Under the pieces are notes generated by a model, which saw only the letters and a list, made by a program, of their open reading frames with translations, had not been told where the DNA came from and did not search any database. A DNA stretch of 64,000 nt, taken from sequence record MH571750.1, one strand, 5' to 3'. Position numbers and translations under genes: made by a program. Position 1 is the stretch's first letter. Every line of letters starts with the position of its first letter. Of this stretch, positions 2,759 through 62,674 are shown piece after piece. Source of the stretch: Escherichia phage vB_EcoM-Ro111lw.

Positions 2759-4111
2759 ATGTGGAATCCAATTGTTAATGTAGATATTACATTGAACACC
2801 GCAGGAACTACAAGAGAAGGTTTTGGGCTGCCACTATTTTTAGCTTCAACAGATAACTTTGAAGAAAGAGTCCGTGGTTACACTTCCTTAACTGAAGTTG
2901 CTGAAGATTTCGATGAAAATTCTGCTGCATATAAGGCTGCTAAACAACTTTGGAGTCAGACTCCTAAAGTAACTCAGCTTTATATTGGTAGACGTGCTAT
3001 GCAGTACACTGTATCAATTCCTGATGAGGTTACTGAGAGCACCGACTATTCTTTAACTGTAGCTGTGAGCGGTGGAGTTTCTCAGCCATTCCAGTACACT
3101 TCACAGTCAGAAGATACTGCTGAGAAGGTGCTACAGCAGCTTAAAACTCAGATTGAAGCAGAACCTTCTGTAAAAGACCTTGTTACTGTCAATGTAACTG
3201 GTGCTGGCGGTTCAGCAACAATGGTAATCACCAAAGCTGGTGTCAACGACTTCGTGAAGGTTACTACTACAGCACAAACAGTGTCAATTGCAAGCACAAC
3301 TGCTGACACAGCATCGACTGCTCTGGCAGCTATTGAAGCGTATTCAACTGACTGGTATTTCATTGCAGCAGAAGACAGAACTCAACAGTTTGTCTTAGCA
3401 ATGGCTTCTGAGATTCAAGCTCGTAAGAAGATTTTCTTTACAGCTAACTCCGATGTAGCAGCACTGCAAGGTACAGAATTAGCGAGTGCAAATGATGTTC
3501 CAGCACAGCTTGCTAAGAATCAGTACACTCGTACAGTTTGCTTGTGGCATCACACAGCAGCAGAAGACTATCCAGAAATGGCTTATATTGCTTATGGTGC
3601 TCCGTATGATGCAGGTTCAATTGCTTGGGGTAACGCACAGCTAACTGGCGTAGCTGCTTCTCTACAGCCATCTAATCAGAGACCTCTGACAAGTATTCAG
3701 AAGTCAGCTTTAGATGCACGTCACTGTAACTTTATTGACCTTGATGGTGGTGTTCCAGTGGTTCGTAGAGGGATTACTTCTGGTGGGGAATGGATTGATA
3801 TCATCCGTGGTGTTGACTGGTTAGAATCAGACCTGAAAACTTCTCTGAGAGACTTGCTAATTAACCAGAAGGGTGGTAAGATTACTTATGATGATACTGG
3901 TATTACCCGTATTCGTCAAGTCATTGAAACCTCTCTGCAAAGAGCAGTCAACAGAAACTTCCTGTCATCTTACACAGTTAATGTTCCTAAAGCCTCTCAA
4001 GTTGCTTTGGCAGACAAGAAAGCTCGTATCCTGAAAGATGTTACCTTCGCAGGTATCTTGGCAGGGGCTATCTTGGATGTTGACTTGAAAGGTACAGTGG
4101 CTTACGAATAA
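2759..4111 (+). CDS. Tail sheath protein (putative)
   Basis: 450-aa ORF directly upstream of a ~148-aa tube-sized ORF, chaperone pair and tape measure; canonical contractile-tail gene order; assignment by synteny and size. Confidence 0.5.
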   Translation: MWNPIVNVDITLNTAGTTREGFGLPLFLASTDNFEERVRGYTSLTEVAEDFDENSAAYKAAKQLWSQTPKVTQLYIGRRAMQYTVSIPDEVTESTDYSLTVAVSGGVSQPFQYTSQSEDTAEKVLQQLKTQIEAEPSVKDLVTVNVTGAGGSATMVITKAGVNDFVKVTTTAQTVSIASTTADTASTALAAIEAYSTDWYFIAAEDRTQQFVLAMASEIQARKKIFFTANSDVAALQGTELASANDVPAQLAKNQYTRTVCLWHHTAAEDYPEMAYIAYGAPYDAGSIAWGNAQLTGVAASLQPSNQRPLTSIQKSALDARHCNFIDLDGGVPVVRRGITSGGEWIDIIRGVDWLESDLKTSLRDLLINQKGGKITYDDTGITRIRQVIETSLQRAVNRNFLSSYTVNVPKASQVALADKKARILKDVTFAGILAGAILDVDLKGTVAYE

Positions 4112-4126
4112 TAGAGGTAAATTGGA

Positions 4127-4573
4127 ATGGCTATGTATCAGCAATATTCCCCTAAAGACGTTGTGTGTAGCTGGAATGGTATTGCCATTGAAGGCTTTGC
4201 CCCAGACTCATTCTTACGTCTACAGAGAACATCACCACTTGTGACACCAGTTGTAGGTGCGGGTGGTCAGGTTGCTCTGACAAGAAATGCAGACAAGACA
4301 GGTACTATTGAGATTGAGTTAATGCAGACTTCTCTCTCTAATCAGATGCTTTCTGCAATTCAAGCTAAACAAGACAATATGGAACTTGAAGAAGATATCT
4401 CTTCTAACTTCGTAATCTACGACCCATCAGGCTCTGTTCTGGCAACTGGTATTAATGCTTGGTTGCAGGAATTACCACAGATTGAACTTGGTCGTGACCA
4501 GAACTCTAAAACTTGGATTTTTGGTTGTGAGAAGCTAGACTACACTTCTACAATTCCAGCGTCAAGTGTTTAA
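4127..4573 (+). CDS. Tail tube protein (putative)
   Basis: 148-aa ORF between sheath candidate and chaperones; followed by strong terminator. Confidence 0.5.
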   Translation: MAMYQQYSPKDVVCSWNGIAIEGFAPDSFLRLQRTSPLVTPVVGAGGQVALTRNADKTGTIEIELMQTSLSNQMLSAIQAKQDNMELEEDISSNFVIYDPSGSVLATGINAWLQELPQIELGRDQNSKTWIFGCEKLDYTSTIPASSV

Positions 4574-5287: not shown

Positions 5288-10671
<5,384 letters not shown>

Positions 10672-10672
<1 letters not shown>

Positions 10673-12141
10673 TGGCAGGATTAACTACAACAGGATTACA
10701 AACTCTAAGATATCAGGAAATTTTTGATAATATCAAATCAAGACTTCTTAGAGATATTTCACCAAACCTTGACGTTTCTGAAGATAGCCAATTAGGTCTC
10801 TTCCTAGCTTCAATTGCAAGGTCTTTAGCAGATACACATGAGATTCTATCAGAAATCTATGACGGCGGGACAATTGACAAGGCTGAAGGATTTAACCTTG
10901 ATGATATTACAGCTTTGAATGCTGTATACAGATATGTTGCTCAGGCAACAAGGGGTCAGGTTGAGTTCACTGGAACAACTGGTGCTACCATCTCTTCAAC
11001 AACAAGATTGAGAAGTACTGCTGGAAATATCTTTTATCCAGTTAACAATATTACCCTTACCCCATCATATTGTGTTGAAGCTGTTCTTGAAGTTAACTCT
11101 TTACGAACTGATGCAGATTATGTTATTATTATTGATAACGTTATTTTCTCATATAAACCAACCTCATCAGACACAATTACCACACTACTAACTAAATTAG
11201 CAGAGACTATTAATGGTGGTATTGTAGCAAAAGCAGAAGTTATCAATGATGGAGCCTCATTAAGAATCTATAAAGATGAGGGTGATATCATTGCAAGAAC
11301 AAACCCTATGGTTGTTACTGCGACAACGTTTCTGACATTTACAAAGATTACAACTATCTCAGATGTAGTAGCTGAAGAGGTTGGTGCTATTCCTGCTTTA
11401 GCTGGGACTCTTATTGAGATTGAAACCACTGTTGATGGCCTTGACAGCATCTATAACAGGTATGACTTAACAACTGGTAGAAACGAAGAAACTGACACAG
11501 AACTTAGACAGAGGTATTTAGAATCCTTAGCAGTTACTGGTGTAGGGACTTTGGATGCAATTGTAGCTGCTGTTAAAAGGGTTCAAGGTGTCTCAGATGC
11601 TTCAGGTGTTGAAAATGATACTGAAGAGACGAACTCAGAAGGTCTTCCACCAAAATCTTTTAAGATTGTCGTAGTCGGTGGTCAAAATGATAATGTTGCT
11701 CAAGCAATCTGGGATACAAAACCTGCTGGTATTAGAGCTTACGGCTCGATTTTTGGCACAGCCTATGATTTAGGTGGTTTAGCACATAATATTTACTTTA
11801 GCAGACCAACACCAAAATACGCATTTGTTAAAGTCTCTTACTCTTTATATGACGAAGAGAGCTTGACAATCCCTGAAGAGGATATCAGAGACAGTATTGT
11901 ACAAGGTATTAATGCCTACGGAAGAACTCTTAAGGTTGGTAATGACGTTATCCCTAACAGAATCTACGGATATATCTATGATGTAATTAAAGGTATTGAG
12001 ATTAACGAGGTTAAAGTAGCCTTATCAAACAGCCAATCAGTTCCACCTAGTGACGGACAATATACTACAGCAAGAATTACTGTCGACGGTGACCAATATA
12101 CTGTTTGGGAAAGCAGCCAGTATACCATCACTAAGGAGTAA
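10672..12141 (+). CDS. Baseplate J-like wedge protein (putative)
   Basis: 489 aa; position and size typical of baseplate J family. Confidence 0.4.
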
Positions 12142-12143
12142 CA

Positions 12144-12998
12144 ATGTTTGAAAAGATTGATAGTGTTTATTATAAAACACTTGATGAAAGAACTGTAACA
12201 CAGTTTAAAGATAAGTTTATCTATACAAGCATCTTGAAAGCAATCACTGATGAGTTACAAACCTTAGAAGATGTTTGCTGGCAAATGCACACAGAGAGGA
12301 ATATTAGGACGTCAGTAGGCCAACAACTTGATAATATTGGCTCACTGATTAAAGTTCCTAGACCTTTAGGTGCTGATGATGAAACATATAGAGCTATGCT
12401 TTATATCCAAATCTTCCTAAGACGTTCTGACACTACTCCAACATTCTTGCAAAAAGCAATTATGACATTGTATGGTGCAACTTTCTCTCAGATTTTTGAG
12501 CATATTACCCCTAAGACTGGTGGTATCGTTATCCGTGTTAACACCAGAAAAAGCGTTCTTGATGCTGCATATACACTGTCAAAGATTTCTGCAACAACCA
12601 CTGGTTCCGCTGTTATCTTAAGAGATGTTACTTTAAATGGGACTGCTTGGACACCTGTAGAGGTTGCTGATTCATCACTTGCTATTGTTGATGATAAAGA
12701 GAACTGGTTTGTAACTGATGCTAACAGAGGTCTGGTCACAAATAACACTGGCGGCTCTCTGGAGTCCAACCTAGTAGGGAGTCTTGCAGATGCTGGTGTT
12801 ATTGATGGTTACTTTAAGGTTGACAGAACAGCAAACCCACAGAGCAATGATTATATGACTGTAGATAGGTCTAATAATAGCGGCTATTTCATTGCTGGTA
12901 GAGAAGCTATTGCAGGTGGTGCATATGGAATCATGGCTGAGGTTGCACAAATTGTCAAAGGCAGAAAAGATAAATCACAACAAGAAGGAAATTCTTAA
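12144..12998 (+). CDS. Baseplate / tail-fiber attachment protein (putative)
   Basis: 284 aa between J-like gene and fibers. Confidence 0.35.
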
Positions 12999-13302: not shown

Positions 13303-14478
13303 ATGGCAGTAGGTGAAATTCAAATTAGTGCCTTGCCACAAGCGGCCTTACCAATTGATTTGAGTGATATCTTCCATCTTAAGCAAGGTGTTGAGGATAA
13401 AAGATGTACGCTTGAACAGTTGTTAGCACCTCACGCATCTTTGAGGAATAACCCTCATGGTGTAACGAAATCGCAAGTAGGTCTTGATAATGTTATTAAC
13501 TCTCTTCAATTAGTTGCAGCTAATAACTTGTCAGACATTGTAAATGTTGCTGAGGCAAGAGCAAATCTACAAATTATGTCGTCAGAGGAAGTGAATAGCT
13601 TAATTCAGCAACATATTGACGATAAAAGCAACCCACACAACACAACGAAAGCACAGGTTGGTTTAAGTAATGTTCAGAACTGGACAACATCCAATCTGTA
13701 CAATGAAGATGCTGATAAGTATGCTACAGCTAGAGCAGTGAATAATCTATATAAAGCTATCCAAGCATCATATCCAGTGGGTACTATTCATCTATCTGTT
13801 AACTCTGCTAACCCATCCACTTACTTGCTTTGTGGAGGTACTTGGGAGTTAGTTTCTAAAGGTAGAGCACTAGTTGGTTATGATACAGATTCTAGACCTG
13901 TTGGTTCAACGTTTGGTTCTCAGACTGTAGCATTAACAAATAATAATTTACCAGCGCATACTCACTCTATCTATCTAACAGGTGGTGGTCATACACACTC
14001 TGCAAGTGTATCTATCTCTAGTTTTGATTATGGTTCAAAAAGTACATCAACTTTTGATTACGGTACAAAAACGACTAATAGTGCTGGTGCTCACACTCAC
14101 ACGTTTAGTGGCACAACAAGCAATGCTGGTAACCACAACCATAGAGTCCCTATGAGGGGTAATGATAGGGGTGGCACAAACGCTATTACTGCATCTGCTG
14201 ATGCTGGTGTTGGTAATGCTATGTATACTGATTTAGCTGGTGCTCACACCCATAGCTTCTCAGGTACAACTGCATCATCTGGTGCTCATAGCCATACTGT
14301 CGCAATTGGTGCTCACAGCCACACTGTTAATATTGGTTCGCACAGTCATACAGGCACTGTTACTGTTTCTAGCTCTGAGCATACACACTCAGGGACATCT
14401 GGTTCTGTTGGTGGTGGTCAAGCTTTCAGTGTTGAGCAGCCATCTTTTGTAGTGTATGTGTGGCAGAGAACAGCTTAA
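13303..14478 (+). CDS. Tail fiber protein with T4-type fibre repeats and His-rich (HxH) C-terminal tip
   Basis: N-terminal repeats NPHGVTKSQVGLDNV / NPHNTTKAQVGLSNV (phage tail-fibre repeat pattern); C-terminal run of HTHS/HSHT motifs like metal-binding fibre tips; C-terminus AFSV...W.RTA shared with next ORF. Confidence 0.7.
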   Translation: MAVGEIQISALPQAALPIDLSDIFHLKQGVEDKRCTLEQLLAPHASLRNNPHGVTKSQVGLDNVINSLQLVAANNLSDIVNVAEARANLQIMSSEEVNSLIQQHIDDKSNPHNTTKAQVGLSNVQNWTTSNLYNEDADKYATARAVNNLYKAIQASYPVGTIHLSVNSANPSTYLLCGGTWELVSKGRALVGYDTDSRPVGSTFGSQTVALTNNNLPAHTHSIYLTGGGHTHSASVSISSFDYGSKSTSTFDYGTKTTNSAGAHTHTFSGTTSNAGNHNHRVPMRGNDRGGTNAITASADAGVGNAMYTDLAGAHTHSFSGTTASSGAHSHTVAIGAHSHTVNIGSHSHTGTVTVSSSEHTHSGTSGSVGGGQAFSVEQPSFVVYVWQRTA

Positions 14479-14488
14479 TTTCTTTACA

Positions 14489-14508
14489 GGGGCTTTGTAG
14501 CCCCTTTT
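14489..14508 (+). terminator. Terminator hairpin between the two fiber genes
   Basis: GGGGCT-ttgt-AGCCCC followed by TTTT; preceded by TTTACA as in the type-B cassettes. Confidence 0.5.
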
Positions 14509-14524
14509 AAGAGGAAAACTTATA

Positions 14525-16885
14525 ATGGCAGATTACAAATTGAGTCAATTAAACTCAATCGACACAATTAGTTCAGAAGACCTATTGCACATCAGAGTTA
14601 AGAAAAGACCTGAAATGTTGGGTGACGAAGACCGTAGAATGACCTATCAAGACTTCTTAGCTTCCTTCAAACTAGAAAGGTTTGTTCAGATTGCTGGGAG
14701 CAATATGACGGGGGATTTAGGTATTGTCAAGTTACTTTACGGTGGCAAGGCTGTATTTGACCCTACAGGTTCTTCTGAAATTACTATTGGGGATGTTTTA
14801 AAGACTTTTAAACTTAACGCAAATGGTCTTAAACTAACTATTGCAGATGCTTCAAGGTCAGCAACTGTTTATCATACTCTGAATAAGCCAAGTCCTAATG
14901 AACTTGGGATGAGAACTAATGAAGAAAATGATGCAAGATATGCAAGACTTGCTGTTACAAATAACTTCAGTATTAGGCAAGCAATTGTAACTGATGGTGA
15001 GCAGTTAACTCTTAAGAAGGCAACCAATGCAGGTGCTTCATATATTCAAGGTAGAGATGCTAATAACCAGCAAACTTGGTATGTTGGACAGGGGACTTCA
15101 AACAGTACCAATGTTTATTTGTACAATCATGCTACTGGCTCAATGTTAACCCTTGATGCAACAGCAGCATTTAATAAGTCACTTAGAATCTCCGGACAGA
15201 TTCAACCTTCAGATTTCTCTAACTTAGATGCTAGATACTTCACTCAGACAGTTGCTAATCAGAGATTTGCACAGTTAGCTGGCAATAATACTTTTACAGG
15301 TGCTAACACTTTCACTAACCTTGTTGCTAAGAAGAATGCTAATGCTATTACTTTACAGAATACTGATGCAAGTACAGCACTTTACATTCTCGGTAAGAAG
15401 TCTGATGGAACAAATAAATGGTATGTTGGTACAGATTCTGACGAGACACGTCTAAACATTTATAACTACCTTACAGGTTCACAGATTTCACTAGGTACTA
15501 CTATTGGTATCAATAAGACTGTGCAAATCACTGGACAAGTCCAACCTTCAGATTGGGCTAATATTGACTCTAGATATATTCCGGCAGCAACATTAAGTAC
15601 GATTGCAAGAACTAATGCTGCTAATACATTCTCTGCACAACAGGTTATCAACTCTGATGGCGAAGCTCTTGCGTTACAAGCAAAAACTGTAACGTCATTG
15701 TTTATCAGAGGTAAATCTGCTGATGGAACTAGCAAGTGGTATGTTGGGAATGGTGATGCCAGCGACATCTTAAACCTGTATAACTACAAGACAGGTAAAG
15801 GGCTTAACATTGGTTCATCATTCGAAATGAATGCAACTTTAACAATCACTGGGCAAGTTCAACCTTCAGATTTCTCTAACTTAGATGCTAGATATTACAC
15901 GCAATCTACCGCAAACTCTAGGTATATGCTTGCTTATTCTTCTGGCACTGGTACAGAGGTAGGTGATAGTGATGGAATTGCTTGGAATGCTAAAACTGGT
16001 CTGTATAATGTTATAACGAAATCTGGTGGTTCAACACAACTGGTCTACCATATGTATCAGGGTAGCAGTTCTACACCAGCAGCTCAGTTAAAATTTAACT
16101 ACAACAATGGCGGTTTTTGGTATAGGTCAGCAAGAGACGGTTATGGTTTTGAGAGTGCTTGGTCTAAAATCTATACAGACAAAGATAAACCAACCCCTTC
16201 AGACATCGGTGCATACACTAAAGCTGAAACTGACCAGAAGATTGCAGATGCAATTAGTGACTCTACAGACCTGAATAAAATCTATCCAGTAGGGATTGTG
16301 ACGTGGTTTAACAGTAATGTCAACCCTAACACAGCACTTCCTGGGTTAACTTGGACGTACCTGAACAATGGTGTTGGCAGAACTATTAGAATTGCAGCAG
16401 CAAATGGTTCAGATGTTGCTACAACTGGTGGTTCAGACTCTGTAACATTAGCTGTTGGTAACTTGCCTTCACACACGCATAGTTTCTCTGCTACCACTTC
16501 ATCATTTGATTATGGTACTAAGACTTCTAGCACAACTGGTAACCATAACCACAACAGAGGGACTATGGAGATTACTGGTACAGTGGGTTACTTTAGAAGT
16601 GACTCTAGCAGCTTCTACACAGCAAGTGGTGCATTCACACTTGGTAGCTCAACTGCTTCTAAGGGTTTTACTGGCTCTAACTTCACTAATGGTATCCCTG
16701 CTAACTTTAATGCGTCAAGAACTTGGTCTGGTGTAACGAATACGACAGGTAACCACAGCCACACTGTTGGTATTGGTGCTCACAGCCACACAGTTAGTGG
16801 TAACACAGGTGGTACTGGTTCTGGTTCAGCATTTAGTGTTACTAACCAGTTCTATAAGTTAATGGCTTGGGTGAGAACTGCTTAG
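14525..16885 (+). CDS. Tail fiber protein (long), three internal ~110-aa repeats, same His-rich C-terminal module
   Basis: Three tandem repeats ending (I/V)QPSD(F/W)(S/A)N(L/I)D(A/S)RY; C-terminal HTHS/HNHN/HSHT motifs and ending AFSV...W.RTA paralogous to 13303..14478. Confidence 0.7.
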   Translation: MADYKLSQLNSIDTISSEDLLHIRVKKRPEMLGDEDRRMTYQDFLASFKLERFVQIAGSNMTGDLGIVKLLYGGKAVFDPTGSSEITIGDVLKTFKLNANGLKLTIADASRSATVYHTLNKPSPNELGMRTNEENDARYARLAVTNNFSIRQAIVTDGEQLTLKKATNAGASYIQGRDANNQQTWYVGQGTSNSTNVYLYNHATGSMLTLDATAAFNKSLRISGQIQPSDFSNLDARYFTQTVANQRFAQLAGNNTFTGANTFTNLVAKKNANAITLQNTDASTALYILGKKSDGTNKWYVGTDSDETRLNIYNYLTGSQISLGTTIGINKTVQITGQVQPSDWANIDSRYIPAATLSTIARTNAANTFSAQQVINSDGEALALQAKTVTSLFIRGKSADGTSKWYVGNGDASDILNLYNYKTGKGLNIGSSFEMNATLTITGQVQPSDFSNLDARYYTQSTANSRYMLAYSSGTGTEVGDSDGIAWNAKTGLYNVITKSGGSTQLVYHMYQGSSSTPAAQLKFNYNNGGFWYRSARDGYGFESAWSKIYTDKDKPTPSDIGAYTKAETDQKIADAISDSTDLNKIYPVGIVTWFNSNVNPNTALPGLTWTYLNNGVGRTIRIAAANGSDVATTGGSDSVTLAVGNLPSHTHSFSATTSSFDYGTKTSSTTGNHNHNRGTMEITGTVGYFRSDSSSFYTASGAFTLGSSTASKGFTGSNFTNGIPANFNASRTWSGVTNTTGNHSHTVGIGAHSHTVSGNTGGTGSGSAFSVTNQFYKLMAWVRTA
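15201..15237 (+). repeat. 37-bp direct DNA repeat inside fiber gene (copy 1; partner near 15858-15894)
   Basis: ttcaaccttcagatttctctaacttagatgctagata occurs twice about 660 bp apart within 14525..16885. Confidence 0.6.
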
Positions 16886-16892
16886 TCCCTTA

Positions 16893-16921
16893 TTGACTGA
16901 TTGTTAAGATGGTGCTAATAT
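16893..16921 (+). promoter_or_regulatory. Sigma70-like promoter TTGACT-N17-TAATAT, overlapping a 9-bp-stem hairpin (16906-16946)
   Basis: Hexamers identical to the cassette promoter at 57172; hairpin AAGATGGTG...CACCATCTT. Confidence 0.4.
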
Positions 16922-16964
16922 TCTTTATGGGTATTCTCACCATCTTGGCTGATGAGGTGATTAA

Positions 16965-17162
16965 ATGCCTACAATCCTAGCAATTCTTCTAAAAAATCTA
17001 GGTAGCTTCTTCTGGAAACTCATTTTATCCCTTCTAAGTGAATACATGATTGAGAAAGTGTTCTTTAAGCTTGCAAGATACCTTGCGAGTAAGACAGACA
17101 CACCTATTGATGATGAGTTCGTAGATAACTTAGAAAAAGCTTTTAAGGGGGAGAATAAATGA
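16965..17162 (+). CDS. Small amphipathic protein (lysis-associated or virion protein; unknown)
   Basis: 65 aa; ATG with GAGGTGA RBS; hydrophobic/amphipathic N-terminus. Confidence 0.45.
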   Translation: MPTILAILLKNLGSFFWKLILSLLSEYMIEKVFFKLARYLASKTDTPIDDEFVDNLEKAFKGENK

Positions 17163-57171: not shown

Positions 57172-57263
57172 TTGACTCTTTGAGTATGGTTATCTAATAT
57201 TTGCATCAACGGGGAGGGAATGACCTTCCCCACTAAGTAAAGTCCTAAACTGGAGATTCTAAA
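57172..57263 (+). promoter_or_regulatory. Type-A cassette 1: TTGACT-N17-TAATAT promoter plus conserved hairpin leader and RBS
   Basis: Leader TCAACGGGGAGGGAATGACCTTCCCCACTAAGTAAAGTCCTAAACTGGAGATTCTAAA immediately before ATG 57264; GGGAA-tgacc-TTCCC hairpin. Confidence 0.6.
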
Positions 57264-57644
57264 ATGGCATACCGTGCACCTAAATTCATCAACAAAGACA
57301 ACTTCCGCAACGCACTGGAGAAGTCACTTGATGAAAAATTTAACGGCAAATTGATTGTTGTTCACGCATTCAATTTTAAGTATGATATTAACGGGAATAA
57401 AATCAACCATTACACGGCAACCATGTTAGATGGTACGCTATCAAGTGAAAAAGCCGTACTGAATGCACTTGCAGGACGTGGTAAAAACCTGATAAGCTGC
57501 AATAAGAGACGTTATCAAGGTGGCGCATATGGTTATGATGATGCTGTTTACCATCTTGAAAATATGGGCTATTCAGTGGAGAAAGCTGGAGCGTCTCAAA
57601 TAATTGGTAGTGATGGTTATGTGACAATCTTCAAAATTAAATAA
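57264..57644 (+). CDS. Hypothetical small protein (cassette-associated)
   Basis: 126 aa, ATG after conserved leader. Confidence 0.55.
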   Translation: MAYRAPKFINKDNFRNALEKSLDEKFNGKLIVVHAFNFKYDINGNKINHYTATMLDGTLSSEKAVLNALAGRGKNLISCNKRRYQGGAYGYDDAVYHLENMGYSVEKAGASQIIGSDGYVTIFKIK

Positions 57645-57650
57645 AAGTAC

Positions 57651-57730
57651 TTTACAAGGGGCTTATAGTTCGATAAAGTAAGCCCCAGATAAAGAGCTTT
57701 ATCACTCAATCCTAAATTGGAGATTCAAAA
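57651..57730 (+). promoter_or_regulatory. Type-B cassette 1: TTTACA + GGGGCTTA...TAAGCCCC hairpin (with embedded -10-like TAAAGT) + conserved leader
   Basis: 8-bp GC-rich stem; followed by AGATAAAGAGCTTTATCACTCAATCCTAAATTGGAGATTCAAAA then ATG 57731. Confidence 0.55.
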
Positions 57731-57988
57731 ATGGCTATTATCAAAAACGTTGTAGTTCCTGCAAAAACTCGTGATGACGCTCGCATCATGGCGAAAAAGT
57801 TAGGCGGGAAAGTGGTTGACAACGGAAAACAATCTGCTGTAAGATGGAGCGTGAAGGCTGATAAGCAACTAACCTTAAAACGCAGTTCAAACAATCTTTT
57901 TAAAGGTGTAAAATCACTCGGTAAAGTGAACGTGTTTACCAAAAAAGGCTATAAAATGCACTTATCATTAACTGGCAATTTAATCTGA
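57731..57988 (+). CDS. Hypothetical small basic protein (cassette-associated)
   Basis: 85 aa. Confidence 0.5.
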   Translation: MAIIKNVVVPAKTRDDARIMAKKLGGKVVDNGKQSAVRWSVKADKQLTLKRSSNNLFKGVKSLGKVNVFTKKGYKMHLSLTGNLI

Positions 57989-57996
57989 TAAAGTAC

Positions 57997-58078
57997 TTTA
58001 CAGGGGGCTTAAAAGCTGATATCTTAAGCCCCAGATAAAGAGCTTTACCACTCAATCCTTAAACTAGGAGATTCAAAA
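57997..58078 (+). promoter_or_regulatory. Type-B cassette 2 (TTTACA + GGGGCTTAA...TTAAGCCCC hairpin + leader)
   Basis: 9-bp stem, -10-like TATCTT in 3' arm, conserved leader to ATG 58079. Confidence 0.55.
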
Positions 58079-58591
58079 ATGAAAACTGTAGAAGCTACCT
58101 TTGAAGTTGTAAAAGAAAAATTTTCCATCATTTACGAAGCTGTTAATTGCTTTGAAGCAAGCCATAACCTTGATAATTGGGAGTTTACAGATGACCATCA
58201 AGGCGGCGTGACTATTAAAAACCCCAACTGTCAGCGTAATGATTTTAAATATGCAATCCCTTTACATTACAGCCTTAAACAGCTTTCAAGTGACTATGCA
58301 AAACAAGGCCGGGAAAATCCATCAAAAGAGGCTTACATAAGCTTACAGAAAGAACTAGAAAGAGATTTAGAGGCTTCAGAATACAACCTTGCCGCGAAAG
58401 TTGTCGATGCAAATGGTCAAACAATTTTAGATAGTTTTTATATTGGTTACGCTTTCGATTGGTGCTATAGTGACGGCGATGATTTAGAGGATAGACTAAA
58501 AGAAGAGGTGAGCAATTCAGACGCAGAATCTGAAGTATTAGAACGCTTGGAAGCATTAAAAGATTCAGTGATGAATATCTTTAAGAACTAA
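58079..58591 (+). CDS. Hypothetical protein (cassette-associated)
   Basis: 170 aa. Confidence 0.55.
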   Translation: MKTVEATFEVVKEKFSIIYEAVNCFEASHNLDNWEFTDDHQGGVTIKNPNCQRNDFKYAIPLHYSLKQLSSDYAKQGRENPSKEAYISLQKELERDLEASEYNLAAKVVDANGQTILDSFYIGYAFDWCYSDGDDLEDRLKEEVSNSDAESEVLERLEALKDSVMNIFKN

Positions 58592-58600
58592 ATAGATTTC

Positions 58601-58678
58601 TTTACACGGGGCTATCAAGCTGATAAGATAGCCCCAGATAAAGAGATTTATCAACTATCCTAAACTGGAGATTCAAAA
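58601..58678 (+). promoter_or_regulatory. Type-B cassette 3 (TTTACA + GGGGCTATC...GATAGCCCC hairpin + leader)
   Basis: Different stem sequence from cassettes 1 and 2 but base pairing kept (compensatory changes). Confidence 0.55.
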
Positions 58679-58975
58679 ATGAAATTATCAAATAAAGTCC
58701 GTGAAAATCTAAGCAAGTTACTCAACAAAATTGATTTTATCGAGACATCAAGGAATAGTCATGATGTTATGGAATGGTTACACGGAAAAATCAAAGGCCG
58801 TCGTGTAGTGATTTGCTTATGGAATAGTTGCAGGGAATATAAAAAACCTGTATTACAAGTCAATATCTATGATGATACTTTTAAAAGCCCTGTAAAGTCT
58901 AAAAGTGATTTATTAGAATCCTATGAGATAACTGTAAATGGCAAAGTATCAAGTAAAGAGGAAACACCATGTTAA
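58679..58975 (+). CDS. Hypothetical small protein (cassette-associated)
   Basis: 98 aa. Confidence 0.5.
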   Translation: MKLSNKVRENLSKLLNKIDFIETSRNSHDVMEWLHGKIKGRRVVICLWNSCREYKKPVLQVNIYDDTFKSPVKSKSDLLESYEITVNGKVSSKEETPC

Positions 58976-59301
58976 TGACTGGTATCACTGCAATCATTGC
59001 CATTTTCGCGCTATATAAGGCATATAAAGCCTATAATCTAGCAAATAAGGCAATCACACAGCAGGTTAGCAATAGCCTTGTAGAAAGCTTTCTAGGGCGT
59101 CTCAGTGATGAGCAAATAAAGCGGTTAGAAATGAGCTTCAGATTCAAAGCGAAAACCTATCAGATAAGTGACATCTTCAAGGATGATTTCCAGTTAGTCG
59201 ATGATTATAATTCTCTGATAAATGCTTTAAATATCAGTGACTTAAAAGACTACTACGCTGTAATTGTTCAAGAGTTGAGCAAACGAAAACAAAACTGTTG
59301 A
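58969..59301 (+). CDS. Hypothetical membrane-anchored protein
   Basis: N-terminal hydrophobic helix (MLMTGITAIIAIFALY); RBS AAGAGGAAA. Confidence 0.5.
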   Translation: MLMTGITAIIAIFALYKAYKAYNLANKAITQQVSNSLVESFLGRLSDEQIKRLEMSFRFKAKTYQISDIFKDDFQLVDDYNSLINALNISDLKDYYAVIVQELSKRKQNC

Positions 59302-59390
59302 CACTGATTTTTAGATAGATTAAATTACACATCAACGGGGAGGGAACAACCTTCCCACTAAATAAAGTCCTTAAACTAGGAGATTCTAAA
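59298..59390 (+). promoter_or_regulatory. Type-A cassette 2: TTGACA-N17-TAAATT promoter plus conserved hairpin leader
   Basis: Consensus -35; leader ACACATCAACGGGGAGGGAACAACCTTCCCACTAAATAAAGTCCTTAAACTAGGAGATTCTAAA before ATG 59391. Confidence 0.65.
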
Positions 59391-59663
59391 ATGTATACTA
59401 CTAACAATGGCCTCACTTTGAACGTCACACTACGTCACTATGTAGATGGTGTCATGCACTTTGAAGATTTACAAGCTGAACAACATATCTTAGATTGGCA
59501 AGTCGCAGGACTCCAAAAAACTGCTACGGGATACGGTAAAAAGATTCCAACTAGTTGGAAAGTTCACTATGAAGGACGTTTGCGCAGAATTTATCAAGAT
59601 GTGCAAAGCAATAGCGCATCGAGTTACATTATAGTAAAAGGTGAAAAACTGCATTTAGTATAA
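59391..59663 (+). CDS. Hypothetical small protein (cassette-associated)
   Basis: 90 aa. Confidence 0.5.
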   Translation: MYTTNNGLTLNVTLRHYVDGVMHFEDLQAEQHILDWQVAGLQKTATGYGKKIPTSWKVHYEGRLRRIYQDVQSNSASSYIIVKGEKLHLV

Positions 59664-59668
59664 AGTAC

Positions 59669-59748
59669 TTTACATGGGGTTTAAAAGTTGGTATCTTAAG
59701 CCCCAGATAAAGAGCTTTACCCCTAAATCCTAAATTGGAGATTCAAAA
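59669..59748 (+). promoter_or_regulatory. Type-B cassette 4 (TTTACA + GGGGTTTAA...TTAAGCCCC hairpin + leader)
   Basis: Stem retains pairing through a G-U wobble; conserved leader to ATG 59749. Confidence 0.55.
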
Positions 59749-60153
59749 ATGGCTATTAATAATCGTGAGTTATCAATCTTAAAAGCACGTTTAACCGTTA
59801 ATCGAATCAATGTTATCACGTCATCAGCACCAGACGAGACATTACACAACATTATCGGGAAGATTCAAGGTGTTATCTTAGACGTTGAGAATGTAAAAAA
59901 CTCATTAGCAGACGTTGCAGCAGGTGTTACACTAGACGGCGCACAATATGAAATGATTGACATGTTAGGCAAATCAAAGGTTATGAATAAAGAGTTAGAC
60001 TTAAAAATGTTTCGATTTGCCGTGAAAGTATGGCTATCTGTCGAGTATGATGCTAATTTTGCAATTGCTGATTTCTTTGCCACTTGGTTGCAACGTAACT
60101 TAACAAATCATGATTTTCGTGATATCTGTGATGCAATTTACGCAGAACTTTAA
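59749..60153 (+). CDS. Hypothetical protein (cassette-associated)
   Basis: 134 aa. Confidence 0.55.
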   Translation: MAINNRELSILKARLTVNRINVITSSAPDETLHNIIGKIQGVILDVENVKNSLADVAAGVTLDGAQYEMIDMLGKSKVMNKELDLKMFRFAVKVWLSVEYDANFAIADFFATWLQRNLTNHDFRDICDAIYAEL

Positions 60154-60161
60154 AAATTTTA

Positions 60162-60253
60162 TTGACACTGATTTTTAGATAGACTAAATTACACATCAAC
60201 GGGGAGGGAACAACCTTCCCACTAAATAAAGTCCTTAAACTAGGAGATTCAAA
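60162..60253 (+). promoter_or_regulatory. Type-A cassette 3: TTGACA-N17-TAAATT promoter plus conserved leader
   Basis: Almost identical over about 90 bp to cassette at 59298. Confidence 0.65.
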
Positions 60254-60796
60254 ATGAAATGCTTTCACGGTACTACTCAAGAAAACTTTATCAACCTGAT
60301 TAATAACGGTGATAAACCATCAGGTGTATGGAATTGTTCGGATATGGACGGCAATTTTTACGTGTACCCAGAAAATAAACTCTATGGTGATGATGAGGAA
60401 GAGATAGCATCGGAAGGTATCCAGCAAGCTCTAGGAAATGCCACTATCACGGCAGCTTTTCAGATGAAAACTCAAAATATTGTTATCTTAGAACTTGACA
60501 TTCCAGAGGATGAGCTAAATGATGATTATTCTTGTGATAACATGTCAAATATAGCAAGCTTTACAGAGTACTTTGATGTAAATTGGATTAAAAAGGTCTA
60601 TACAACAGAGTTCAACGCTATGTATTCACCTTTTTGTCTCCCTTCACTGGATAACCCAAATTTGAATTATCTTGATGAAACATTGGAGCTACTTGCTAAA
60701 AGTATCCAACAATCCGACAGTATTCAGGTTTTTTGTGACATCATGGATACACTGACAGAAAACATTGTAGAGAGTGATTTAAAGGTCTTTTTCTAA
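60254..60796 (+). CDS. Hypothetical acidic protein (cassette-associated)
   Basis: 180 aa. Confidence 0.55.
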   Translation: MKCFHGTTQENFINLINNGDKPSGVWNCSDMDGNFYVYPENKLYGDDEEEIASEGIQQALGNATITAAFQMKTQNIVILELDIPEDELNDDYSCDNMSNIASFTEYFDVNWIKKVYTTEFNAMYSPFCLPSLDNPNLNYLDETLELLAKSIQQSDSIQVFCDIMDTLTENIVESDLKVFF

Positions 60797-60862
60797 AAAC
60801 CTATACATTCACCTTATAAACACTGATTAACCCCTTACAGGGGCTTTTAGAGGGCTTAAATC

Positions 60863-61096
60863 ATGCTTACAACCATTTATCTCATCCTTTCTATCTGTAA
60901 CGGTCATTCATGTGACTTTAAAGGGCTTGAAGAGTTTACAGGAAGTAAAGAAAATGCTATTCAGGTTTGCCAGATAGCAAGACAAGACTATCCCGCCAGT
61001 GACGACATTCAATGCTACTTTAAGACAGAAGATGAAGACGGCATCTATTTTGACAGCGTTGACGGTCAATATGAAATTATCATTGAAAAAGACTAG
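60863..61096 (+). CDS. Hypothetical small protein
   Basis: 77 aa; RBS AGAGGG; preceded by CCCCT-tac-AGGGG hairpin. Confidence 0.45.
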   Translation: MLTTIYLILSICNGHSCDFKGLEEFTGSKENAIQVCQIARQDYPASDDIQCYFKTEDEDGIYFDSVDGQYEIIIEKD

Positions 61097-61187
61097 ACAA
61101 GCCTGATAAAAGTCTGTAAATTACACATCAACGGGGAGGGAATGACCTTCCCCACTAAATAAAGTCCTTAAACTAGGAGATTCAAAA
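61094..61187 (+). promoter_or_regulatory. Type-A cassette 4: TAGACA-N17-TAAATT promoter plus conserved leader
   Basis: Leader identical to cassette 1 hairpin version (GGGAATGACCTTCCCC). Confidence 0.6.
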
Positions 61188-61529
61188 ATGGCTTATGTAA
61201 CCGTAATTACCGATAAAGCTGGCTCATCTTGGTCAACTCAGGTTAGTGATAAGATGTCGCCTATGCAGTGCCTAAAATACTTTGAGCAGTGGAACAAAGG
61301 CGAGGATGTAAGCCCCTTTCAAGTGATGCAAATCATCCATACAGATAACGAAGGGAATAAAACGACCTTGAACAGTGAATACTACGCAAGCCGTTTTGAA
61401 ACGAGAAGTAAAACAATGAAGCTTTTACGTGAATCCGGCTATTCTCATATTGCCGCGCTAATCTGGGATGACCTGCTAAAAAGCCAGCGTATCAGCTATG
61501 TAAAACCTGAAAAAATATTCATCAGTTAA
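61188..61529 (+). CDS. Hypothetical protein (cassette-associated)
   Basis: 113 aa. Confidence 0.55.
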   Translation: MAYVTVITDKAGSSWSTQVSDKMSPMQCLKYFEQWNKGEDVSPFQVMQIIHTDNEGNKTTLNSEYYASRFETRSKTMKLLRESGYSHIAALIWDDLLKSQRISYVKPEKIFIS

Positions 61530-61561
61530 TCAATAACTTACAAAAAACTTTTAAAAAAGTG

Positions 61562-61590
61562 TTGACAATACCCCTTGACATTGGTAACTT
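61562..61590 (+). promoter_or_regulatory. Possible additional promoter TTGACA-N17-TAACTT in a 220-bp non-coding spacer (tandem TTGACA hexamers)
   Basis: Two TTGACA hexamers 13 bp apart; no ORF directly downstream. Confidence 0.3.
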
Positions 61591-61658
61591 TGTTCGAGGG
61601 GGTTTATCTAAAAGGGATTCACTTAATAGATTCTTTATAGATAAACTTAAAAAATTGC

Positions 61659-61750
61659 TTGCAAAGGCAAATCAAAACAAGTAAATTACTAATCAACGGG
61701 AAGGGATTAACCTTCCCACTAAGTAAAGTCCTTAAACTAGGAGATTCAAA
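61659..61750 (+). promoter_or_regulatory. Type-A cassette 5: TTGCAA-N17-TAAATT promoter plus leader (hairpin variant GGGA-ttaacct-TCCC)
   Basis: Conserved TAAATTACTAATCAACGGG...ACTAAGTAAAGTCCTTAAACTAGGAGATTCAAA before ATG 61751. Confidence 0.6.
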
Positions 61751-62281
61751 ATGAACAAGTTTCAAGCTATCAACTATATTCGCTCATCCAACGTTATGAC
61801 TAAGCCCGTTAAAGATACCTTCGAATTTCGTTGCAACGGTGTACACTTTGCAACTATCACTAAATCAGAAAACGGGGCTTATTATATACATCGTCGTAAT
61901 GCCTCTACTGTTGTAGTCTCTCACTTTATGCAAGCTGTAGCAGAACTGTTACCGCTATTCTTAGGTATTTACTTAGATGAGTGCAAAAACGTTCGCAACC
62001 ACGTTAAAGACCTTTTAAATGGTTATAAAATGGCTTATGAACGTTCTATCAAGAATCTTAACAAGTTCTATAAAGCCCCTGAAAATACTGTTTCAATGGC
62101 TTACAGTGTAAGCGGTGAGTTGGTTAGCCTCTTTGAAGTGGAAGAAATCGCGTTGCATGACTTACGCCCTAGCGGTTACTCTAAGACACTAGAGGAAGGT
62201 TTAACGTTCAATATCAAGAACTTAGAAAAAACTTTAAAAGATATTGAAAAAGATATTGACGAGACAATCAAAAATCTGTAA
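61751..62281 (+). CDS. Hypothetical protein (cassette-associated)
   Basis: 176 aa. Confidence 0.55.
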   Translation: MNKFQAINYIRSSNVMTKPVKDTFEFRCNGVHFATITKSENGAYYIHRRNASTVVVSHFMQAVAELLPLFLGIYLDECKNVRNHVKDLLNGYKMAYERSIKNLNKFYKAPENTVSMAYSVSGELVSLFEVEEIALHDLRPSGYSKTLEEGLTFNIKNLEKTLKDIEKDIDETIKNL

Positions 62282-62343
62282 ATTGTCAATCAACGGGGGA
62301 TAACCTCCCCCACTAAACAAAATCCTAAACTGGAGTTATCAAG
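62256..62343 (+). promoter_or_regulatory. Type-A cassette 6: TTGACG-N17-TAAATT promoter (overlapping upstream stop) plus leader with compensated hairpin GGGGGA-taacc-TCCCCC
   Basis: Stem sequence differs from other copies but pairing is kept. Confidence 0.6.
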
Positions 62344-62607
62344 ATGGAAAACGTAGAATTAACCACACTTTTACAAATTGCAACCGACAAAGAAGATGTA
62401 GCATTATTCCACCGTATCGAAAGCGATTTGTTCAATGGTGAAATCATTAAAGAATCTTACGAAGTTGTCGGATTCAAAGATGGTAAAGCATTTGGCTTTT
62501 TTGACCTCGACAAAAGCAAAGCGGTTACAATGTACGATGTTCTATCTTGTGAAATTCTGACAAAATACAACGAAAAAAGGCTTGCAACCTACGCCAATAT
62601 GCAGTAA
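62344..62607 (+). CDS. Hypothetical small protein (cassette-associated)
   Basis: 87 aa. Confidence 0.5.
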   Translation: MENVELTTLLQIATDKEDVALFHRIESDLFNGEIIKESYEVVGFKDGKAFGFFDLDKSKAVTMYDVLSCEILTKYNEKRLATYANMQ

Positions 62608-62674
62608 ATTACTAATCAACGGGGAGGGAATGACCTTCCCACTAAACAAAGTCCTAAACTGGAGAATCTAAATT
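62582..62674 (+). promoter_or_regulatory. Type-A cassette 7: TTGCAA-N17-TAAATT promoter plus conserved leader
   Basis: -10 overlaps upstream stop codon; leader with GGGAATGACCTTCCC hairpin before ATG 62675. Confidence 0.6.

What the first reader, a model, noticed from the sequence alone, without database searches (positions are those of the whole stretch)
13303..16885. Two tail-fiber genes share a His-rich C-terminal tip; long fiber has near-identical internal DNA repeats
Both fibers end in dense HxH-type motifs (HTHS, HSHT, HNHN) and the same AFSV...W.RTA terminus, suggesting a duplicated metal-coordinating receptor-binding or chaperone-independent folding module. The long fiber has three tandem repeats of about 110 aa, with a 37-bp identical DNA stretch twice (about 15201 and 15858). 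That is a substrate for repeat expansion, contraction or recombination that could vary fiber length or host range.
Basis: seen in the sequence. Interest (0 to 1): 0.45.

Follow-up and report, generated by a model that had tools for sequence, protein, structure and literature searches.

The report
Felix-O1-type phage short and long tail fibres
These are the short and long tail fibres of a known Felix-O1-like E. coli phage; both end in a T4-type histidine/metal-stabilised receptor-binding tip, and this architecture was already published for the same genus in 2025, so the finding is correct but ordinary.

Summary
The window is Escherichia phage vB_EcoM-Ro111lw (Felixounavirus). ORF A (13303-14478, 391 aa) and ORF B (14525-16885, 786 aa) are orthologues of Bas63 gp26 (short fibre) and gp27 (long fibre). 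The Bas63 cryo-EM paper (PMC12609058, 2025) already describes both tips as T4 gp37-like (collar, HxH needle, head). It also describes the repeated beta domains and reports no repeat-number variation in the genus.

I confirmed tip homology to T4 gp37 (PDB 2XGF: E 1.8e-26 for A, 3e-4 for B; A vs B E 3e-17). A has 9 HxH motifs and B has 4. B has three 106-113-aa repeats (Pfam PF20744 x3). The 37-nt exact repeat is at 15201 and 15858.

"Near-identical DNA repeats" is overstated. The repeats share only 49-57% nt (35-45% aa); only the linker codons are identical. Repeat number is 3 in all 146 relatives, so expansion/contraction is not seen.

Recombination is seen in other forms:
- Repeat cores are discrete allelic cassettes, with 62 combinations among 146 proteins.
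- They are exchanged at conserved linkers, including between slots 1 and 3.
- Some Salmonella-clade relatives carry the same head on both fibres.

Metal binding is inferred from homology, not shown. Overall: already known, with modest added detail.

The parts
13303..14478 (+). ORF A: short tail fibre (STF), 391 aa, orthologue of Bas63 gp26
   Evidence: ORF. phrog_2097 'tail fiber protein' E 2e-139. 79% identical to bas63_0026 with the same synteny.
13450..13674 (+). Two copies of the motif NPHxxTK(S/A)QVGLxNV (aa 50-64 and 110-124), 60 aa apart, in the conserved N-terminal shaft of the STF
   Evidence: Read directly from the translation. This part is 0.89-0.97 conserved among 27 relatives. [quoted passage not shown] Assigning this motif to that element is inference.
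13738..13947 (+). STF collar domain (aa 146-215)
   Evidence: Pfam Gp10_C PF21939 at 68 bits (cut-off 27), aa 154-276. Aligns with the T4 gp37 tip and T4 gp10.
13948..14142 (+). STF needle, outgoing strand (aa 216-280), HxH at 219, 230, 264, 278, plus the SFDYGSK/TFDYGTK motifs
14143..14244 (+). STF head, the distal tip (aa 281-314) and the most variable part
   Evidence: Identity to relatives is 0.35-0.50 with gaps. It is the largest gap between HxH motifs. It aligns with the T4 gp37 region between the His clusters.
14245..14478 (+). STF needle, return strand (aa 315-362; HxH at 315, 329, 338, 347, 360) and conserved C-terminus ...AFSVEQPSFVVYVWQRTA
   Evidence: The C-terminal R and A are invariant with the T4 gp37 end ...IAFNYIVRLA.
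14525..16885 (+). ORF B: long tail fibre (LTF), 786 aa, orthologue of Bas63 gp27; 100% identical to the vB_EcoM-Ro111lw tail fibre protein
   Evidence: phrog_4277 at 1370 bits over its full length. P0001 is 100% identical. 65% identical to bas63_0027.
14525..14944 (+). LTF conserved N-terminal part (aa 1-140), the baseplate-binding region
   Evidence: Identity is 0.90-0.99 across 143 relatives. The function is taken from the Bas63 structure.
14933..15259 (+). Repeat 1 (aa 137-245): variable beta core plus conserved linker
   Evidence: Own HMM. Pfam PF20744. AF2 core pLDDT 73-89. Core identity 0.57-0.70 and linker identity 0.85-0.92.
15260..15598 (+). Repeat 2 (aa 246-358)
15599..15916 (+). Repeat 3 (aa 359-464)
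15201..15237 (+). 37-nt exact repeat, copy 1 (codons for QPSDFSNLDARY at the end of repeat 1)
15858..15894 (+). 37-nt exact repeat, copy 2 (end of repeat 3); 657 nt (219 codons, in frame) from copy 1
15938..16267 (+). gp37_C-type domain (aa 472-581), variable and homologous to part of phage Mu fibre protein S
   Evidence: Pfam PF12604 at 95.5 bits. PDB 8JU3 E 6e-26. Identity 0.60-0.71. Replaced by a longer module in the 844-849-aa class.
16274..16465 (+). LTF collar domain (aa 584-647), nearly invariant
   Evidence: Pfam Gp10_C at 24 bits, below the cut-off of 27. Aligns to the STF collar. Identity 0.95-0.99.
16466..16552 (+). LTF needle, outgoing strand (aa 648-676), HxH at 650 and 674, SFDYGTK motif
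16553..16753 (+). LTF head (aa 677-743, 67 aa), variable
   Evidence: Identity 0.57-0.61 with gaps. 11 head types among 143 LTFs.
16754..16885 (+). LTF needle, return strand (HxH at 744, 753; HSHTVGIGAHSHTV) and conserved C-terminus ...AFSVTNQFYKLMAWVRTA
   Evidence: A 43-nt stretch is 86% identical to STF 14287-14329 (family D4).

Best explanation
The region holds the two receptor-binding fibres of a Felixounavirus myophage, vB_EcoM-Ro111lw. ORF A is the short fibre and ORF B the long fibre.

Each fibre is expected to be a homotrimer with this layout: an N-terminal baseplate-binding part, then a shaft, then a T4 gp37-type tip. In the tip the chain runs out from a collar domain along a needle, forms a small distal head that contacts the receptor (LPS for this genus), and runs back to the collar. 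The needle therefore has six strands. Each HxH motif from the three chains is expected to supply six histidines around one metal ion (Fe in T4), stapling the needle together. That predicts up to 9 metal sites in the short fibre and 4 in the long one.

The long fibre shaft carries three beta-domain repeats and a Mu-S-like domain, joined by conserved linkers.

Diversity arises by homologous recombination at the conserved segments (linkers, collar, His strands), not by changes in repeat number. Repeat cores, the gp37_C-slot domain and the heads behave as exchangeable allelic cassettes. The 37-nt identity marks one such linker, shared by slots 1 and 3.

Shown here: homology, architecture, and conservation/mosaic patterns. 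Inferred: trimer, metal binding, receptor contact at the head, and recombination as the mechanism.
For: Identity and orthology. P0001 is 100% identical to the Ro111lw tail fibre protein. The region is 94-96% nt identical to Felixounavirus isolates. Synteny matches Bas63 gp26/gp27, at 79% and 65% identity, and the Pfam architecture is the same.

Tip. ORF A aa 146-362 matches T4 gp37 tip 2XGF at E 1.8e-26, and ORF B aa 648-765 at E 3e-4. The three-way alignment shares the YP.G collar, SFDYGTK, HSHtVgIGAHsHTV and the terminal R.A. Pfam Gp10_C supports the collar. The variable head sits between conserved His strands. PMC12609058 reports the same collar/needle/head layout for both Bas63 fibres from cryo-EM density plus models, and states that T4's HxH motifs coordinate Fe.

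Repeats. PF20744 matches in 3 stretches. AF2 gives confident beta cores at pLDDT 73-90. The top Foldseek match is T7 gp17 4A0U (67 columns, 1.7 A), with weak T4 gp34 and Mu fibre matches.

Exchange. DNA identity jumps between about 98% and about 50% at the linkers. Same-slot cassette identities are bimodal, either 30-50% or 80-100%. There are 62 R1-R2-R3 combinations in 146 proteins, and association between slots is low (AMI 0.09-0.36). Three cassette types occur in both slot 1 and slot 3. This includes cultured isolates: KhF2 slot 1 versus EC6 slot 3, 84.5% over 278 nt. One metagenomic genome has a 281-nt perfect R1=R3 repeat.
Against: No direct evidence exists for metal content, trimer state or receptor contact in this phage. 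The AF2 monomer model of the tip is unusable (pLDDT below 50). ORF B's matches are weak: E 3e-4 to 2XGF, and its collar is below Pfam's cut-off (24 vs 27 bits). The Bas63 fibre densities were too poor to model side chains, so even there the HxH-metal sites are inferred from T4. The relatives sampled are biased towards the query (top 120 clusters plus 26 IMG/VR loci). The 281-nt perfect repeat in L027 comes from a metagenome assembly and could be an assembly artefact.
Confidence: 0.88

Rival explanations
1. The internal repeats are a length-variation device. Recombination between the 37-nt identical stretches, or between whole repeats, expands or contracts the long fibre and so changes its reach or host range.
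For: The two 37-nt copies are exact and 657 nt apart, which is in frame, so a deletion would give a viable 567-aa reading frame. Relatives carry 14-49-nt exact matches at the same two linkers.
Against: All 146 relatives have exactly three repeats. Protein lengths cluster at 776-796 and 844-849 aa with none near 567 or 1005. The Bas63 paper also finds no variable repeat numbers in the genus. The repeats are only 49-57% nt identical.
Confidence: 0.05
2. The similarity of the two C-termini is only low-complexity His/Gly/Ser/Thr composition, not a shared domain.
For: The region is compositionally biased. HMMER reports high bias scores for the matches to 2XGF (31.5 and 35.2).
Against: BLASTP with composition-based adjustment still gives E 3e-17. 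The alignment starts in the non-His collar (YPVG...TW...G). It includes SFDYGTK and the hydrophobic C-terminal strand. 41 columns are invariant across A, B and T4 gp37. Pfam Gp10_C matches at 68 bits.
Confidence: 0.03
3. The conserved C-terminal segment is an intramolecular chaperone that makes folding independent of helper proteins, as in endosialidase/T5 pb1-type fibres where a C-terminal domain is cleaved off.
For: No T4 gp38 homologue is present in the window (best tblastn E 0.2). The two small downstream proteins have no chaperone-family match. The last 45 residues of the LTF are 0.91-1.0 conserved.
Against: Pfam finds no Peptidase_S74 or other intramolecular chaperone domain. The C-terminal strand aligns with the T4 gp37 C-terminus, which stays in the mature fibre and returns to the collar. 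T4 gp37 needs gp38 and gp57A (my own knowledge). A general chaperone could be encoded outside the window or supplied by the host.
Confidence: 0.1
4. The high variability of the repeat cores is simple drift in mutation-tolerant shaft domains. This is one of three options offered in the Bas63 paper. On this view there is no cassette exchange or selection.
For: The cores are surface-exposed beta domains away from the tip. The Bas63 authors list mutational tolerance as a possibility.
Against: Pairwise identities are bimodal with almost nothing between 50 and 80% in slot 1: 108 of 10,053 pairs. Phages 98-100% identical in flanking DNA differ by about 50% in one core while sharing 98-99% in the next. 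The same type appears in different slots.
Confidence: 0.1

Closest known systems
Escherichia phage JohannRWettstein (Bas63) short fibre gp26 and long fibre gp27 (cryo-EM, Sci Adv 2025, PMC12609058)
   Same: They are orthologues: same gene order, 79% and 65% identity, and the same Pfam architecture. The paper describes both tips as T4 gp37-like (collar, HxH needle, head). It describes the LTF beta repeat domains as separated by helix-turn motifs. It reports high variability in the tips and repeat domains, and no repeat-number variation.
   Different: HxH counts differ: 9 and 4 here versus 7 and 6 in Bas63. The LTF head is 67 aa here, which is the commoner type (88 of 143). The paper's main text never uses the word 'recombination'. 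The cassette exchange, slot 1/3 exchange and STF/LTF head sharing found here are not among the explanations it offers for the variability.
T4 long tail fibre distal subunit gp37, receptor-binding tip (PDB 2XGF)
   Same: It shares the collar, the HxH-lined needle, the distal head and a C-terminus that returns to the collar. ORF A matches at E 1.8e-26 and ORF B at E 3e-4, with shared motifs.
   Different: T4 gp37 is 1026 aa and is one of four proteins that make up a kinked fibre. Here each fibre is a single gene product attached directly to the baseplate. T4 has 7 HxH motifs. T4 has the gp38 assembly gene immediately downstream, and no homologue is found here. The shaft is unrelated in sequence.
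T7 fibre gp17 C-terminal region (PDB 4A0T/4A0U) and T4 proximal fibre gp34 rod (PDB 4UXE/5NXH)
   Same: The LTF repeat cores match T7 gp17 by sequence (E 1e-3) and by fold (67 columns, 1.7 A, 31% identity). There are weak Foldseek matches to gp34 (E 0.03-0.07). The Bas63 paper likens the repeats to the gp34 rod.
   Different: The domain occurs three times in tandem here, with conserved linkers. BLASTP against gp34 is not significant (E 0.064).
Phage Mu tail fibre protein S (PDB 8JU3, 5YVQ); Pfam gp37_C PF12604
   Same: LTF aa 468-574 matches Mu S residues 324-427 at E 6e-26.
   Different: In Mu this region lies near the receptor-binding end, and Mu uses a separate chaperone (5YVQ is the fibre-chaperone complex). 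Here it is an internal shaft module followed by the gp37-type tip.
Mosaic T-even gp37/gp38 adhesin loci, where conserved motifs including 'His boxes' were proposed as recombination sites (Tetart et al. 1998, recalled from memory; not found in the paper library)
   Same: Conserved short segments flank variable segments, and specificity modules are swapped by homologous recombination. Here the linkers, collar and His strands are the conserved junctions.
   Different: The exchange seen here also involves shaft repeat cores, transfer between repeat slots within one gene, and sharing of a head between two different fibre genes of one phage.

Membership tests
T4 gp37-type receptor-binding tip (collar-needle-head) | Significant sequence similarity to the solved tip (2XGF) across collar and needle | tested here: met
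   ORF A E 1.8e-26 over aa 146-362. ORF B E 3e-4 over aa 648-765. Three-way alignment with 41 invariant columns.
T4 gp37-type receptor-binding tip (collar-needle-head) | HxH motifs on both the outgoing and the returning strand, flanking a variable head | tested here: met
   A has 4 outgoing and 5 returning motifs around a 34-aa head. B has 2 and 2 around a 67-aa head. The heads are the least conserved parts.
T4 gp37-type receptor-binding tip (collar-needle-head) | Collar domain of the gp10/gp12 type before the needle | tested here: met
   Pfam Gp10_C scores 68 bits (cut-off 27) in A. It scores only 24 bits in B, below the cut-off, but B's collar aligns with A's.
T4 gp37-type receptor-binding tip (collar-needle-head) | Homotrimeric six-stranded needle with metal ions bound by six histidines each | not testable with these tools
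   Only monomer AF2 was available and the tip scored pLDDT below 50. Metal content needs experiment.
T4-type fibre assembly pathway | Dedicated assembly gene (gp38) next to the fibre gene | tested here: not met
   T4 has gp38 directly downstream. tblastn of gp38 against the window gives a best E of 0.2. The downstream 65-aa and 123-aa proteins have no chaperone match.
Felixounavirus STF/LTF pair (Bas63 gp26/gp27) | Gene order: baseplate J, baseplate protein, 100-aa protein, STF, LTF, two small genes, then thymidylate synthase/DHFR on the other strand | tested here: met
   Window ORFs compared with Bas63, DE17, KhF2 and 26 IMG/VR loci.
Felixounavirus STF/LTF pair (Bas63 gp26/gp27) | Full-length sequence similarity and the same domain architecture | tested here: met
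   79% and 65% global identity. Both LTFs have PF20744 x3, PF12604 and PF21939; both STFs have PF21939.
Pfam PF20744 gp37_trimer repeat | Score above the curated cut-off | tested here: met
   197.3 bits against a cut-off of 21.7, in three stretches.
Self-cleaving C-terminal intramolecular chaperone fibres (Peptidase_S74 type) | S74 chaperone domain at the C-terminus | tested here: not met
   Pfam gives no such match at E up to 0.1 in either protein.
Contingency-type tandem repeats (copy-number variable) | Copy number varies among close relatives | tested here: not met
   Three copies in 146 of 146 relatives.

The most novel reading that the evidence does not exclude
The three shaft beta domains, the gp37_C-slot domain and the two heads would form a combinatorial cassette system. 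Each slot holds 13-17 deeply diverged alleles that reassort almost freely by recombination at conserved linkers. Cassettes move between slots 1 and 3 of the same gene, and heads are shared between the two fibre genes. On this reading the shaft domains, and not only the tip, are under diversifying selection. They would act either as secondary glycan-binding (host-range) sites along the fibre or as targets of a host defence. This would answer the variability that the Bas63 authors called unexpected.
Probability: 0.35. Interest if true: 0.5.

Novelty: already known. Interest (0 to 1): 0.27.

Why it matters
The fibres decide which E. coli and Salmonella strains Felix-O1-like phages infect, and these phages are used for typing, biocontrol and therapy. 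The tip architecture itself is textbook T4 biology and is already published for this genus. The practical value of this check lies elsewhere. It shows where the natural exchange junctions are (linkers near 14880, 15200, 15500, 15820 and 16170, plus the collar and the His strands). It also shows that repeat cores and heads come as discrete interchangeable alleles. That gives a ready map for engineering host range by cassette swapping. It also argues that the puzzling shaft variability comes from recombination among old alleles rather than from drift.

Tried and rejected
- AF2 monomer model of the whole LTF with a 44-sequence alignment: mean pLDDT 48. Only the three repeat cores were confident and the tip was unusable, so I drew no structural conclusion about the His-rich tip. 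A trimer prediction was not possible with the tool.
- Foldseek against the PDB recovered only T7 gp17 convincingly. T4 gp34 and Mu fibre matches were weak.
- BLASTP of the LTF against T4 gp34 was not significant.
- tblastn of T4 gp38 against the window found nothing. Pfam on the two small downstream proteins gave only coiled-coil noise.
- Literature. 'His box' + gp37 + recombination found nothing relevant. Bartual 2010 and Hyman & van Raaij 2018 are not held, so T4 facts are cited through PMC12609058 or marked as my own knowledge. The PhageMaP Bas63 preprint has nothing specific on the fibres. The Ro111lw genome paper only places the fibre in a tree.
- Test for unusually high synonymous conservation in the linkers. 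Codon identity at identical residues is 0.65-0.72, similar to the conserved backbone (0.75-0.80) and above the cores (0.53-0.59). This fits exchange at the linkers but shows no special DNA-level constraint.
- A first full MAFFT run timed out and was repeated with faster settings.


Full report
**What is there**

The stated coordinates are exactly the start of one ORF and the stop of the next. ORF A runs 13303-14478 (+, 391 aa) and ORF B runs 14525-16885 (+, 786 aa). Upstream lie a Baseplate_J protein (10672-12141), a DUF2612-like baseplate protein (12144-12998) and a 100-aa protein. Downstream are two small genes, then thymidylate synthase and DHFR on the other strand.

ORF B is 100% identical to the tail fibre protein of Escherichia phage vB_EcoM-Ro111lw. 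This is a published 86,950-bp Felix-O1-like phage isolated on STEC O111 (PMC6454146). The region is 94-96% identical in DNA to other Felixounavirus isolates, and 234 phage records match it.

**Checking the observation**

The two proteins share a C-terminal module. BLASTP with compositional adjustment gives 34% identity over 194 aa, E 3e-17, and the alignment begins in a non-His segment (YPVG...TW).

- HxH motifs lie at aa 219, 230, 264, 278, 315, 329, 338, 347 and 360 in A, and at 650, 674, 744 and 753 in B.
- ORF B has three tandem repeats. Anchors lie at aa 224, 337 and 443, and units span aa 137-245, 246-358 and 359-464. Pfam PF20744 'gp37_trimer' matches three times at 197 bits.
- The 37-nt exact repeat is real, at 15201-15237 and 15858-15894. 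It belongs to one of only five direct-repeat families with an exact seed of at least 20 nt in the 64-kb window.

The repeats as a whole are not near-identical. They are 35-45% identical in protein and 49-57% in DNA. The exact stretch is just the 12 linker codons QPSDFSNLDARY at the ends of repeats 1 and 3.

**What it is**

ORF A aa 146-362 matches the solved receptor-binding tip of T4 gp37 (PDB 2XGF) at E 1.8e-26. ORF B aa 648-765 matches it at E 3e-4. An alignment of both tips with the T4 gp37 C-terminus shares these features:

- the collar motif YP.G
- SFDYGTK
- HSHtVgIGAHsHTV
- the terminal R.A, so the 'AFSV...W.RTA' end corresponds to T4's '...IAFNYIVRLA'

Pfam finds the gp10-type collar domain in A (68 bits) and weakly in B (24 bits, below the cut-off of 27).

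ORF B is a mosaic of known fibre modules:

- a conserved N-terminus
- three PF20744 repeats related to T7 gp17 (PDB 4A0T, E 1e-3)
- a PF12604 domain matching phage Mu fibre protein S (8JU3, E 6e-26)
- the collar and the gp37-type tip

An AF2 monomer model was confident only for the three repeat cores (pLDDT 73-90). Each core is a five-strand beta unit followed by short helices. The tip scored below 50. Foldseek returned T7 gp17 first (67 columns, 1.7 A), then weak T4 gp34 and Mu fibre matches.

**Already published**

Bas63 (JohannRWettstein, MZ501086) has the same gene order. Its gp26 and gp27 are 79% and 65% identical to ORFs A and B and share their Pfam architecture. The Bas63 cryo-EM paper (PMC12609058) makes the following points:

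- It describes a 430-A short fibre (gp26) and a 630-A long fibre (gp27).
- It says both carry a T4 gp37-like tip made of a collar, an HxH needle in which the chain doubles back at the head, and a small head.
- It notes that T4's di-histidine motifs coordinate Fe.
- It counts 7 and 6 HxH motifs. My regex gives the same counts on Bas63.
- It likens the LTF beta repeat domains to the T4 gp34 rod.

**Repeat number**

I counted repeats with an HMM built from the three window repeats. All 146 relatives have exactly three: 120 cluster representatives from the protein search and 26 IMG/VR loci. Lengths fall at 776-796 aa, or at 844-849 aa where the gp37_C-slot module is replaced by a longer one. Nothing lies near the 567 aa that recombination between the two 37-nt copies would produce.

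**How diversity actually arises**

Conservation across 143 long fibres alternates sharply along the protein:

| Segment (aa) | Identity to the window protein |
|---|---|
| N-terminus (1-140) | 0.90-0.99 |
| Repeat cores | 0.47-0.70 |
| Linkers | 0.85-0.92 |
| gp37_C domain | 0.60-0.71 |
| Collar | 0.92-0.99 |
| Head (681-740) | 0.57-0.61 |
| C-terminus | 0.91-1.0 |

The short fibre shows the same pattern. Its minimum, 0.35-0.50, falls at the head, aa 281-320.

Sliding DNA identity against individual relatives changes abruptly at the linkers:

- L023 is 98-99% identical in repeat 2 but about 47% in repeat 1 and about 52% in repeat 3.
- EC6 and HY02 are 91-98% identical in repeat 1 but about 50% in repeats 2 and 3.

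Same-slot core identities are bimodal, either 30-50% or 80-100%. In slot 1 only 108 of 10,053 pairs fall between 50 and 80%. Clustering at 80% gives 43 types, with 13, 17 and 16 per slot. They occur in 62 different combinations among 146 proteins, and association between slots is low (AMI 0.09-0.36). This is exchange of old alleles, not gradual drift.

**The linker shared by repeats 1 and 3**

Three cassette types occur in both slot 1 and slot 3, and never in slot 2. This holds for cultured isolates. KhF2, ECP2307, LF82P1/2/5, LTH02 and EF202P1 carry in slot 1 the type that EC6 carries in slot 3. KhF2 nt 435-712 matches EC6 nt 1104-1381 at 84.5%.

One metagenomic genome (L027) has a 281-nt perfectly identical copy in both slots, although misassembly is not excluded there. 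Relatives show 14-49-nt exact matches between the same two linkers.

**Tip swapping**

Heads fall into 5 types among 27 short fibres and 11 types among 143 long fibres. In several Salmonella-clade relatives the short and long fibres carry the same 31-aa head. It is 100% identical within L024, where 200 nt are 91% identical between the two genes. It is 90% identical within L004. In the window phage the two heads differ (34 vs 67 aa). The only DNA trace is a 43-nt, 86%-identical stretch over HSHTV.IGAHSHTV.

**Chaperone question**

T4 has gp38 directly after gene 37. No gp38 homologue is detectable in the window, and no Peptidase_S74 domain is present. The two downstream small proteins look like a membrane protein and a transmembrane/coiled-coil protein. 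This does not establish chaperone independence.

**Verdict**

The metal-binding tip interpretation is supported by homology and already known. Length variation is refuted. Recombination and tip swapping are supported in a different form. Metal binding, trimer state and receptor contact remain inferred.

Noticed in passing
window 57204-62674: There are five to seven copies of an intergenic unit of about 46-93 nt. It has a TTGACA-type hexamer, then CATCAACGGGGAGGGAAnnACCTTCCCCACTAAATAAAGTCCTTAAACTAGGAGATTC (a G+C stem-loop plus a Shine-Dalgarno sequence), spaced 330-2126 nt apart. A second family lies at 57644, 57990 and 59662. They look like repeated promoter/terminator-RBS cassettes in front of small genes.
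   Followed up: no
L014 (Escherichia phage EC6) 4755-7125 and L015 4750-7093: The long-fibre reading frame is split in two (541+259 aa and 453+311 aa) in these two genomes. This is either a frameshift or a sequencing error. EC6's GenBank record accordingly lists extra ORFs here.
   Followed up: no
L027:3436-3716 and 4096-4376 (ENA ERZ28650236 scaffold_10): A 281-nt, 100% identical direct repeat places the same cassette in slots 1 and 3 of one long-fibre gene. It is either a very recent intragenic gene conversion or a short-read misassembly.
   Followed up: partly
L024:4280-4479 vs 6739-6938 (length matches UAB_Phi87); L004:4283-4548 vs 6732-6997: In these Salmonella-clade relatives the short- and long-fibre tips share 200 nt at 91% and 266 nt at 74%. 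The 31-aa head is identical or nearly so on both fibres, so both would be expected to bind the same receptor.
   Followed up: partly
window 16860-17160 (end of LTF, intergenic region, 65-aa gene): This stretch is 97-100% identical in DNA even to relatives whose neighbouring baseplate genes are only 78-92% identical. It could be a strongly constrained element, or a shared homology arm at the downstream edge of the variable fibre locus.
   Followed up: no
GenBank records GU169904.1 ('Staphylococcus phage SA1') and MG065664.1 ('Campylobacter phage A132'): Both records contain Felixounavirus fibre sequence at 84% nt or 71% aa identity. They look like contaminated or misassigned records. SA1 is already flagged UNVERIFIED_ORG in the protein database.
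   Followed up: no
window 14240-14452 (+), 16455-16736 (+) and other overlapping ORFs: Long alternative-frame ORFs of 70-100 aa inside the fibre genes are by-products of the repetitive His/Gly/Ser/Thr codons, not genes.
   Followed up: no
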